Assembly: GCF_051903065.1 (NCBI RefSeq)
Contig: NZ_CP178438.1
Reading direction: 5' to 3' (one strand)
Length of the DNA stretch: 64,000 nucleotides
DNA from: Escherichia coli
Lineage (GTDB): Bacteria > Pseudomonadota > Gammaproteobacteria > Enterobacterales > Enterobacteriaceae
This document shows, one piece after another, positions 15,001 through 18,000 of the stretch; position 1 is the stretch's first letter, and every line of letters begins with the position of its first letter. Made by a program: the position numbers.

Positions 15001-18000
15001 ATTTGCCCGGGAATACCATCCAGTCGTTTTGGGTTGCTAATGATGTCCTGCATCCGCTTAATCTGGTCGGGCGTAGACATATAATCCCACAGGGTGAGCA
15101 GAACCTTTTTTGCGGCTACACTATTTCCCTGGTCTGATACTAATGCCATATAGCCCCATAAACTATCCCTCAGCCAGACAGCATCATAGTGGGTTTCTGC
15201 CGCTGTTTTGTCATCTTCGAAAGTAGAAGCAAGAATAAACGTTCCCCAGGGTTTCTCCGTCAACGTTAACTTTCGTGTGTTTTCTGTTAATGTTAGCAAT
15301 CCTTGAATTTCGTCTTTGGTATAGTGGCTCTTTATTTCATTTTGTAATTTGGCTGAGTGAATCAGAAGACGATAATTAGGATACTTATCTGGATTTAACG
15401 ATAAATAACTTTTATCTGTTGCTGCCCCCGTGGAATTAAGAATGTTAAATACAGATTCACTCGTCACTTCTGCCCCTGTCGCCTGGCATGTGCCGCACGA
15501 AAATATACCAGCGAGCAGAAGAGTTAATGCAGATTTCCCTTTCATAAAATATTCCATCAATCGTTTGTTAAAAGCGTAGATAACCACTTATTTAACAACT
15601 TGAAAATAAGGTATTTTACCTGGGTTGTTATAAAAGGATTGCATTGCGTAAACGCTTTTTATTTACAAAAAAATGGGGAAGTGTTACGGCGATTGCGAAA
15701 AGTCTGAAGCGATTGAATTAAGATAATATAGAAAATCAGATACAACAAAAATGGCAGGTTGATGAGGTGAAGATAAATTGGAGCGGGCGAAGGGAATCGA
15801 ACCCTCGTATAGAGCTTGGGAAGCTCTCGTTCTACCATTGAACTACGCCCGCTTCGAGATGCGTAAGGCATTATAAACCTTACGCTCTCCTTAGCAAGTG
15901 CCGCGCTGCTGACTGCTGATTAATTCGCCATCAGCATTTTGGCTTGCTGCCCTGCGGCGGCAAGTAACGTAGCGGATCAATTGCCGTTGCACGGTAACGA
16001 ATCTGGAAATGCAGGCGAACAGATGCCGCATCCGTGCTCCCCATGGTGGCGATTTTTTACCCAGCCTTCACGCTTTGCCCATTATTTACCAGCATCGTGT
16101 CATTATGGGCGTAAGCCGTAATGTAATCTTCACTGTGTTTAATCATGATGAGATTACCGTAGCCACGCAGCTGGTTGCCCACATACACCACCTTTCCTGC
16201 ACCCGCGGCGTAAATAGGTGTACCCCGTGGAGCTGAGATATCAATCCCTTTATTGCCGCCATCTGCTGTCGAATACGGCATGATAACTTTCCCTGTCGTT
16301 GGCCATAACCAACAACGTTGCCCTACTGGCGGCCAGGAAGATTTCGGTACCGCTGATGACGGTGTAACCGATGCGGTTTTGGTCGTTGATTTGGCGGTTG
16401 ATTTACGTGTACTACTGCTACTTTTCGCCCCACCCAGTTTTAGTTTCTGACCAACTTCAATGGTGTAAGGGGGGGAAATGCCGTTCAGTCGCGCCAGCTC
16501 TTTTACGCTGGTTCCCGTGGTGCGCGAAATACGATATACCGTATCCCCCCGTTTCACGGTGTAAACGGAGCCGGAATACGTTCCTGTATCGGATGATTTG
16601 CTACCCGAACAGCCCACCAAAAGCAGTCCAACCGATAACAACATCACGATACCCAGAGATTTTTTATTCAGGCGTCCCGCACTCAAAATCTTTCCTCGCT
16701 TAAAAAACAAGACGCCATATCATAGCAGCCAGCCTCTTGATACCCAATCTCTTGCTTCTGGAAAAACGCGGTAATAGAGAAAGAGGTTAATTTCATTTGG
16801 CAAAGGGAAGTATCATCAGCAAAATATTCACTGTAGAGGTATCGAATTTCCTGACTTTTTTACCCTATTTCCCATCCTGATGCGTAATAATCCCAATTTA
16901 TCACATTGATTTTATCGCCACTCATATTGATACGTATCACTGCCCCTATTCAGAGTCCTGTTTCGTATCATATCTGTGTTTTTTTAACGTCATCACACTT
17001 CCTTCCTCCCCTAACGCTTATCGTCGTTTCTGGCGTAAATCTTGCCTGCTTAGACTAAATCTTTGCCATAAGAACCAAATGTTCAAATCGAGGGGATTTC
17101 TATGGAAGCGCGGGAAGCAACCGCTACGGGTGAATCATGCATGCGCGTTGATGCCATTGCTAAGGTCACCGGGCGGGCACGATATACTGACGATTATGTT
17201 ATGGCGGGCATGTGTTATGCGAAATATGTACGTAGCCCTATCGCACATGGTTATGCCGTAAGTATTAATGATGAACAAGCCAGAAGTTTACCAGGCGTAC
17301 TGGCGATTTTTACCTGGGAAGATGTGCCTGATATCCCATTCGCTACAGCTGGGCATGCATGGACACTTGACGAAAACAAGCGCGATACCGCCGATCGCGC
17401 ACTGCTAACTCGCCATGTTCGTCATCATGGTGACGCCGTTGCCATCGTCGTGGCCCGCGATGAACTCACGGCAGAAAAAGCGGCGCAATTGGTCAGCATT
17501 GAGTGGCAAGAATTACCCGTTATCACCACGCCAGAAGCGGCGCTGGCAGAGGACGCTGCACCAATCCATAACGGCGGCAATTTACTGAAACAAAGCACGA
17601 TGTCGACGGGCAATGTCCAACAAACAATCGATGCCGCCGACTACCAGGTACAGGGGCACTATCAGACTCCCGTTATTCAACATTGTCACATGGAAAGCGT
17701 AACATCGCTGGCGTGGATGGAGGATGACTCGCGAATTACCATCGTTTCCAGCACCCAGATCCCGCACATTGTTCGCCGCGTGGTTGGTCAGGCGCTGGAT
17801 ATTCCCTGGTCATGCGTACGAGTCATCAAACCATTTGTCGGTGGCGGTTTTGGTAATAAACAGGATGTACTGGAAGAGCCAATGGCGGCATTCCTGACCA
17901 GCAAGCTTGGCGGCATTCCGGTGAAAGTTTCCCTTAGCCGTGAAGAGTGTTTCCTCGCAACCCGTACCCGCCACGCTTTTACTATTGACGGGCAAATGGG

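What the first reader, a model, noticed from the sequence alone, without database searches (positions are those of the whole stretch)
17102..17143. Alternative upstream start for xdhA with a stronger Shine-Dalgarno
An in-frame ATG at 17102 is preceded by GAGGGG at about 8 nt, whereas the start giving the 752-aa product (17141) has only a weak SD. An N-terminally extended XdhA (13 extra residues) is possible.
Basis: seen in the sequence. Interest (0 to 1): 0.2.

Follow-up and report, generated by a model that had tools for sequence, protein, structure and literature searches.

The report
True start codon of E. coli xdhA

Summary
ATG 17102 and ATG 17141 are in frame, 13 codons apart. GAGGGG (17090-17095) lies 6 nt before the first ATG. 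The second has only a weak GGGTG.

Comparative evidence says 17102 is the genuine start, not a mere alternative:
- In 30 orthologous loci from about 12 enterobacterial genera, the upstream ATG and a strong SD (-6.0 to -9.4 kcal/mol) are always present.
- The downstream "ATG" is CTG, TTA or AAA in five loci from four genera.
- The 12 codons between the two ATGs show coding-type third-position variation (pi 0.15/0.14/0.51) and pN/pS of 0.29. The sequence upstream of 17102 shows neither.
- The extension carries Gly10, which is invariant in an 18-sequence alignment and aligns to a Gly in four of the five solved homologues shown.
- The ChIP-seq-mapped sigma54 promoter (17030-17046) places both ATGs on the mRNA.

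All six PGAP-annotated E. coli genomes I sampled start xdhA at 17102. Only the curated MG1655 record keeps 752 aa.

No direct N-terminal or initiation-profiling data were found. Interest is low, and this is already known in databases.

The parts
17030..17046 (+). sigma54 (RpoN) promoter element CTGGCGTAAATCTTGCC (GG at 17032-33, GC at 17044-45)
   Evidence: The sequence is read directly. The identical 17-mer is listed as the sigma54 ChIP-seq motif for xdhA in E. coli K-12, marked 'C' in the table's EcoCyc column (PMC4591121 Table 1). TGGCRY-N5-TTGC is present in all 30 orthologous loci, upstream of the conserved ATG.
17057..17057 (+). Predicted transcription start (not mapped here)
   Evidence: Inferred from the 'distance 84' to the 752-aa start in PMC4591121 Table 1 and from the -12 GC plus 12 nt rule. 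It gives a 45-nt leader to ATG 17102.
17069..17071 (+). In-frame TAA that bounds the xdhA reading frame upstream
17090..17095 (+). Shine-Dalgarno GAGGGG, 6 nt before ATG 17102
   Evidence: Duplex with the 16S 3' end is -8.0 kcal/mol, which is in the top 2.1% of ATG contexts in the window. An equivalent SD (AAGGGG, CAGGAG, AAGGAG and similar, -6.0 to -9.4) is present in 30 of 30 orthologous loci. Predicted P(unpaired) is 0.66.
17102..17104 (+). Genuine xdhA start codon (ATG)
   Evidence: Conserved at the same position in 25 of the 30 sequences. In Buttiauxella (3 loci), Enterobacillus and Hafnia it is shifted (-45, -39, -24 from the Arg codon). M1 is invariant in alignment A1. It is annotated as the CDS start by PGAP in 6 of 6 sampled genomes.
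17105..17140 (+). Codons 2-13 (EAREATATGESC), coding sequence that includes the conserved Gly10
   Evidence: Third-position periodicity pi is 0.150/0.135/0.510 and pN/pS is 0.29. The 39 nt upstream give 0.56/0.57/0.50 and pN/pS 1.06. Gly10 is invariant in A1 and aligns with a Gly in CutL, QorL, CoxL and NdhL structures.
17141..17143 (+). Met14 codon, which is the start used in the MG1655 752-aa annotation
   Evidence: NC_000913.3 b2866 starts here. The SD is weak, -3.8 kcal/mol. It is replaced by CTG in two Trabulsiella loci, TTA in Buttiauxella B2 and AAA in Hafnia and Enterobacillus.
17102..19399 (+). xdhA CDS, 765 aa plus stop
   Evidence: NCBIfam NF007426 XdhA equivalog scores 1485.8 bits against a cutoff of 916, aligning residues 5-765 to profile positions 2-761. 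Pfam PF01315, PF02738 and PF20256 all match.
19410..20764 (+). xdhB (19410-20288) and xdhC (20285-20764), the rest of the operon
   Evidence: ORF lengths of 292 and 159 aa equal xdhB and xdhC of MG1655.
20804..22582 (-). ygeV, the putative sigma54-dependent activator (context)
   Evidence: The ORF is 592 aa. Its position and orientation match b2869 in MG1655. xdhABC belongs to the YgeV iModulon (PMC10602906).

Best explanation
ATG 17102 is the real, principal translation start of xdhA. The product is the 765-aa molybdenum-binding subunit of xanthine dehydrogenase.

Proposed mechanism: the YgeV/sigma54-dependent promoter at 17030-17046 produces an mRNA that starts near 17057. The 30S subunit binds the GAGGGG Shine-Dalgarno at 17090-17095 and initiates 6 nt downstream at 17102.

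The first 13 residues (MEAREATATGESC) are part of the protein. They supply the conserved Gly-x-Ser/Pro-x-x-Arg-x-Asp N-terminal motif of the xanthine oxidase family large subunit. ATG 17141 simply encodes Met14. The 752-aa start in the MG1655 record is an old annotation choice.

Shown here: the conservation of the ATG and SD, the coding-type selection on the segment, and the database annotations. Inferred: that ribosomes use 17102 in vivo, the exact transcription start, and the structural role of the segment.
For: 1. Orthologues. In 30 loci (Escherichia, Citrobacter, Kluyvera, Atlantibacter, Yokenella, Trabulsiella, Pluralibacter, Klebsiella indica, Buttiauxella, Hafnia, Enterobacillus) an ATG is always present 24-45 nt upstream of the conserved Arg codon, and exactly 42 nt upstream in 25 of them. 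The frame upstream of that ATG is not conserved and stops at varied positions.
2. The downstream ATG is not a start codon in Trabulsiella guamensis and T. odontotermitis (CTG), Buttiauxella B2 (TTA), Hafnia and Enterobacillus (AAA).
3. SD strength is -6.0 to -9.4 kcal/mol upstream in all 30, against -1.9 to -5.7 for the downstream site.
4. Codons 2-13 have pi by codon position of 0.150/0.135/0.510 and pN/pS of 0.29, close to the next 100 codons (0.126/0.095/0.535; 0.14). The preceding 39 nt give 0.56/0.57/0.50 and 1.06. The other two frames of the extension give a ratio of about 1.5. Within the Escherichia clade (including the 97%-identical 'Citrobacter sp. MGH106' locus) the segment shows four synonymous and no non-synonymous changes.
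5. M1 and G10 are invariant in an 18-sequence alignment that includes a 33%-identical Chloroflexi homologue, whose product starts MTSYSVIGQSVTR.
6. Family models and solved homologues align into the extension. NF007426 aligns from residue 5. CutL (1ffu_B) aligns from residue 2, with EARE..G.S..R; QorL and NdhL from residue 8; PaoC from residue 10.
7. The sigma54 promoter lies upstream of both ATGs in all orthologues, giving leaders of 28-59 nt.
8. The predicted mRNA fold leaves the upstream RBS more open: opening energy 7.5 against 13.3 kcal/mol.
9. PGAP annotates 17102 in 6 of 6 sampled genomes. The K-12 765-aa sequence is on at least 1000 contigs, against 51 for the 752-aa form.
Against: No direct experimental evidence was found: no N-terminal peptide, no retapamulin or Onc112 ribosome profiling, and no mapped 5' end. 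The curated MG1655 record still uses 17141.

The AlphaFold model gave pLDDT below 50 for residues 1-27, so it says nothing about a structural role for the segment.

The upstream-region comparison is ungapped, so its high divergence partly reflects indels. PGAP start calls are themselves model-driven and are not independent experimental evidence.
Confidence: 0.9

Rival explanations
1. Dual initiation: both ATG 17102 and ATG 17141 are used in E. coli. This would give a 765-aa and a 752-aa XdhA proteoform from one mRNA.
For: Met14 is retained in most of the orthologous loci examined. A weak GGGTG (-3.8 kcal/mol) lies 9 nt upstream of it. In-frame internal starts are known in E. coli from retapamulin profiling (bioRxiv 10.1101/520783, listed).
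Against: The downstream SD is background-level: 22% of all ATGs in the window do as well. The site is predicted to be more structured, with an opening energy of 13.3 kcal/mol. The codon is Leu or Lys in five loci from four genera, as expected for an ordinary residue. A 752-aa form would lack the invariant Gly10. An out-of-frame ATG at 17137 sits 4 nt upstream and would compete with it.
Confidence: 0.07
2. The MG1655 annotation is right for E. coli: translation starts only at 17141, and the upstream ATG/SD is a non-functional or regulatory leader element.
For: The curated NC_000913.3 b2866 entry (NP_417342.1) and UniRef entries use 752 aa.
Against: Everything listed under the best explanation counts against this reading. 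The strongest points are the coding-type selection on codons 2-13 even within Escherichia (only synonymous changes), the strong conserved SD, and the fact that a ribosome starting at 17102 reads straight through 17141 in frame.
Confidence: 0.03

Closest known systems
RefSeq/PGAP XdhA, 765 aa (for example WP_000388150.1 in K-12 W3110 and BW2952; NCBIfam NF007426)
   Same: It has the same start codon (window 17102) and the same length. The window protein scores 1485.8 bits against a cutoff of 916 and aligns from residue 5.
   Different: Nothing of substance differs. The window is another E. coli allele, 100% identical over 401 nt to strain Combat11I9.
E. coli K-12 MG1655 b2866 / NP_417342.1 (AAC75904.1), 752 aa
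   Same: It is the same gene and reading frame. The product is identical from Met14 onward apart from allelic differences.
   Different: Its start is placed 39 nt downstream. It lacks residues 1-13, including the invariant Gly10, and it has no conserved SD.
Large (Mo-binding) subunits of the xanthine oxidase family with solved structures: CutL 1ffu_B, QorL 1t3q_B, CoxL 1n5w_B, NdhL 3hrd_A, HcrA 1rm6_A, PaoC 5g5g_C
   Same: They share the fold family and the same N-terminal G-x-[SP]-x-x-R-x-[DE]...K.TG motif. The alignments start inside the 13-residue extension.
   Different: Overall similarity is much lower than among the orthologues (best phmmer match 1rm6_A, E-value 7.5e-103; the Chloroflexi homologue is 33% identical), and the substrates differ. 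No structure of E. coli XdhABC is in the PDB copy that was searched.
Start-codon reannotations and N-terminal proteoforms found by initiation profiling (retapamulin Ribo-seq, N-terminomics)
   Same: This is the same kind of question: two in-frame starts close together and a database disagreement.
   Different: Here no profiling data exist for the gene. A likely reason is that the YgeV/sigma54 regulon is rarely active in laboratory conditions. The case rests on comparative genomics.

Membership tests
XdhA, xanthine dehydrogenase Mo-binding subunit (NCBIfam NF007426 equivalog) | Whole-protein score above the curated cutoff, with an end-to-end alignment | tested here: met
   1485.8 bits against a cutoff of 916. 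Residues 5-765 align to profile positions 2-761 of 761.
XdhA, xanthine dehydrogenase Mo-binding subunit (NCBIfam NF007426 equivalog) | Domain set: a/b hammerhead plus two Moco-binding domains | tested here: met
   PF01315 (residues 23-139), PF02738 (159-397), PF20256 (423-700).
XdhA, xanthine dehydrogenase Mo-binding subunit (NCBIfam NF007426 equivalog) | Operon with the FAD subunit xdhB and the Fe-S subunit xdhC, next to ygeV | tested here: met
   ORFs of 292 aa, 159 aa and 592 aa (minus strand) have the same order and lengths as in MG1655.
XdhA, xanthine dehydrogenase Mo-binding subunit (NCBIfam NF007426 equivalog) | Xanthine oxidation activity | not testable with these tools
   Literature only: a delta-xdhA strain fails to consume xanthine (PMC12507026).
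Xanthine oxidase family large subunit N-terminal motif | Gly five residues before the conserved Arg of R-x-[DE]-x3-K-x-T-G | tested here: met
   The motif is met only by the 765-aa form. Gly10 is invariant in A1 and aligns to Gly in 1ffu_B, 1t3q_B, 1n5w_B and 3hrd_A. The 752-aa form lacks it.
Canonical Shine-Dalgarno-led initiation site | A purine-rich SD that pairs with the 16S 3' end, 5-10 nt upstream of an AUG | tested here: met
   For 17102: GAGGGG, 6-nt spacer, -8.0 kcal/mol, top 2.1% of ATG contexts. For 17141: -3.8 kcal/mol, background-level.
Canonical Shine-Dalgarno-led initiation site | Ribosomes observed initiating at the site | not testable with these tools
   No dataset was found. 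The TRAINSPOTTER supplements have no xdhA entry, and the Meydan et al. supplements are not held.
sigma54-dependent promoter | GG-N10-GC (-24/-12) element bound by sigma54 | tested here: met
   The motif is at 17030-17046. The identical site is bound in K-12 ChIP-seq (PMC4591121). It is conserved in 30 of 30 orthologous loci. Binding was not tested here; it comes from the literature.

The most novel reading that the evidence does not exclude
Both ATGs are used, with the ratio set by leader structure or growth condition. This would give two XdhA proteoforms that differ in the N-terminal segment carrying the family-conserved glycine, and might therefore differ in assembly with XdhB/XdhC.
Probability: 0.05. 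Interest if true: 0.25.

Novelty: already known. Interest (0 to 1): 0.1.

Why it matters
The practical value is small but real. The reference MG1655 (and UniProt-style) XdhA entry probably lacks 13 N-terminal residues, including a family-invariant glycine.

Anyone who clones, tags or overexpresses E. coli xdhABC, now of interest for gut purine and urate degradation, should use the 765-aa start and keep the native SD. N-terminal tags designed on the 752-aa model would truncate the protein.

The case also illustrates that the two annotations of the same K-12 sequence disagree and that comparative data resolve the disagreement.

Tried and rejected
- Literature search for direct start-site evidence (xdhA with start codon, retapamulin, TIS or N-terminal extension) found no paper that treats xdhA. 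The retapamulin preprint has no held supplements. The TRAINSPOTTER supplements have no xdhA or b2866 entry. Xi et al. 2000 is not held.
- An AlphaFold2 model of the 765-aa form from an 18-sequence alignment had mean pLDDT 73.7, but residues 1-27 were below 50. That stretch includes the universally conserved RVDAIAKVTG, so the model is uninformative about the N-terminus. No fold search was run.
- An Rfam scan of the leader (16700-17300) found no riboswitch or other RNA family. The only match had E-value 0.77, a chance hit to a trypanosomatid snoRNA.
- I considered a regulatory uORF role for the out-of-frame ATGs at 17079 and 17137. The 17079 ATG is not conserved outside Escherichia and close Citrobacter, so I rejected this.
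- I looked for a YgeV upstream activator site and found a palindrome, TGATACGTATCA. It is only weakly conserved, and its window-wide count (6 against 2.2 expected) is not significant. I left this open.

Full report
**What is in the sequence**

The window around 17100 is the E. coli actS-xdhA intergenic region and the start of xdhABC. A 401-nt query is 100% identical to strain Combat11I9 and matches 5330 of 5426 complete E. coli genomes.

ATG 17102 opens a 765-codon ORF ending at 19399. ATG 17141 lies in the same frame 13 codons later and gives 752 aa. The extra residues are MEAREATATGESC. The in-frame stop upstream is TAA at 17069-71.

GAGGGG occupies 17090-17095, 6 nt before ATG 17102 (8 nt if counted from the GAGG core).

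**Is the SD difference real?**

I computed RNAduplex energies of the 20 nt upstream of each ATG against the 16S 3' end. They are -8.0 kcal/mol for 17102 and -3.8 for 17141.

Among all 2358 ATG triplets in the window, 2.1% reach -8.0 and 22% reach -3.8.

I also folded the predicted mRNA (17057 plus 160 nt). The upstream ribosome-binding site comes out more accessible: SD P(unpaired) is 0.66 against 0.24, and opening energy is 7.5 against 13.3 kcal/mol. This is a prediction only.

**Transcript context**

CTGGCGTAAATCTTGCC at 17030-17046 is a sigma54 promoter (GG-N10-GC). The identical 17-mer is the sigma54 ChIP-seq motif assigned to xdhA in K-12. It is listed with a distance of 84 nt to the 752-aa start and marked 'C' in the table's EcoCyc column (PMC4591121 Table 1).

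[quoted passage not shown] That plausibly explains the absence of initiation-profiling data. No Rfam family matches the leader.

**Comparative test**

This is the decisive evidence. A scan of one genome per species returned 32 loci. I analysed 30 sequences with the conserved R-x-D-x3-K-x-T-G anchor, counting the window and sampled E. coli genomes.

- **Upstream ATG.** It is present in every one. It lies exactly 42 nt before the Arg codon in 25 sequences: Escherichia, Citrobacter, Kluyvera, Atlantibacter, Yokenella, Trabulsiella, Pluralibacter and Klebsiella indica. It lies at -45 in Buttiauxella, -39 in Enterobacillus and -24 in Hafnia.
- **SD.** Every upstream ATG is preceded by a strong SD (-6.0 to -9.4 kcal/mol).
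- **Promoter.** Every locus has the sigma54 element further upstream, giving a leader of 28-59 nt.
- **Frame upstream of the ATG.** The translated frame there is unrelated between genera and stops at varied positions.
- **Downstream ATG.** It is CTG in Trabulsiella guamensis and T. odontotermitis, TTA in Buttiauxella B2, and AAA in Hafnia and Enterobacillus. In those loci the upstream ATG is the only candidate.

**Selection on the 39 nt**

I compared 21 non-redundant ungapped sequences.

| Region | Pairwise diversity by codon position | pN/pS |
|---|---|---|
| Codons 2-13 (the extension) | 0.150 / 0.135 / 0.510 | 0.29 |
| Following 100 codons | 0.126 / 0.095 / 0.535 | 0.14 |
| 39 nt before the ATG | 0.56 / 0.57 / 0.50 | 1.06 |
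| Extension read in the other two frames | not computed | about 1.5 |

Within the Escherichia clade (including the 97%-identical locus labelled Citrobacter sp. MGH106) the segment shows only synonymous differences: gca/gct, acc/act, acg/aca and tgc/tgt. The segment is protein-coding sequence under purifying selection.

One caveat applies. The upstream comparison is ungapped, so part of its divergence comes from indels.

**Protein-level evidence**

An 18-sequence alignment includes a 33%-identical Chloroflexi homologue whose product starts MTSYSVIGQSVTR behind its own SD. In that alignment M1 and G10 are invariant and M14 is not.

NCBIfam NF007426 (XdhA equivalog) aligns from residue 5. Other family models align from residues 7-10.

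Solved homologues also align into the extension: CutL 1ffu_B from residue 2 (EARE..G.S..R), QorL 1t3q_B and NdhL 3hrd_A from residue 8, and CoxL from residue 10. Each has a Gly opposite Gly10. So the extension supplies the conserved G-x-[SP]-x-x-R-x-[DE] N-terminal motif of this enzyme family, and the 752-aa form would begin after it.

An AlphaFold model was uninformative here, with pLDDT below 50 for residues 1-27.

**What the databases say**

PGAP-annotated RefSeq genomes start xdhA at the position equal to window 17102, with a CDS of 2298 nt. This held in 6 of 6 sampled genomes: Combat11I9, W3110, DP033, O157:H7 PV15-279, BW2952 and PK12.

The curated MG1655 record NC_000913.3 keeps the 2259-nt, 752-aa CDS.

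In the 15-billion-protein collection the K-12 765-aa sequence occurs on at least 1000 contigs, against 51 for the 752-aa form. Twelve of the fourteen listed XdhA cluster members are 765 aa; the other two are 764 and 752 aa, and a fifteenth listed member is an XdhB sequence.

The 61-nt stretch that covers the SD and both ATGs is 100% identical in 3578 of 5326 genomes. The remainder are 95-99% identical.

**Conclusion**

The best explanation, at about 0.9 confidence, is that 17102 is the genuine SD-led start of a 765-aa XdhA and that ATG 17141 encodes Met14.

Dual initiation (about 0.07) and exclusive use of 17141 (about 0.03) are not excluded, because no direct N-terminal or initiation data were found.

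The finding is correct but ordinary. It restates a known disagreement between the MG1655 and PGAP annotations. The practical consequence is that expression constructs and the reference entry should use the longer form.

Noticed in passing
window 16057-16059 (minus strand; actS/ygeR CDS 15931-16686): actS carries a nonsense codon in this window: TAG, with window A16059 where Combat11I9 has G. The Gln codon that MG1655 also has here becomes a stop, truncating the amidase activator ActS to 209 of 251 aa and removing the end of its C-terminal domain. The exact 61-mer with this allele occurs in only 3 of 4774 complete E. coli genomes with a match: ECNB21-M121, 23CRST027 and 23CRST031.
   Followed up: partly
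window 16928-16939 and 16959-16970: A perfect palindrome, TGATACGTATCA, and a related copy, TGTTTCGTATCA, lie 60-100 nt upstream of the sigma54 promoter. That is where an activator (YgeV) binding site would be expected. Conservation in orthologues is weak: near-matches appear only in Atlantibacter, Yokenella and Pluralibacter. A 2-mismatch copy at 22809-22820 in the ygeV-ygeW intergenic region is not statistically significant.
   Followed up: partly
window 17137-17151 and 17079-17261: There are two out-of-frame ATGs near the start. ATG 17137 (in ATGCATG) opens a 4-codon ORF, MHAR*. ATG 17079 in the leader opens a 60-aa ORF that overlaps xdhA. The 17079 ATG is not conserved in most Citrobacter and other genera, so neither looks functional.
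   Followed up: partly
window about 15450-15778: Upstream of the glyU tRNA-Gly the window no longer aligns with strain Combat11I9, although the xdhA side is identical. This is the variable ETT2-side region, where MG1655 has ygeQ and IS2.
   Followed up: no
NZ_CM176575.1 (hit H47) and NZ_CP159641.1 (hit H30): A few complete E. coli genomes match only part of the xdhA start region and have no xdhA annotated there. This suggests a deletion or insertion that disrupts the xdhA 5' end in those strains.
   Followed up: no
L028 (Trabulsiella odontotermitis strain 01) 3001-5185: The xdhA orthologue in this assembly is shorter than in the other loci, and its straight translation contains 19 stop codons. 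This suggests a frameshift or an assembly error downstream of the intact start region.
   Followed up: no
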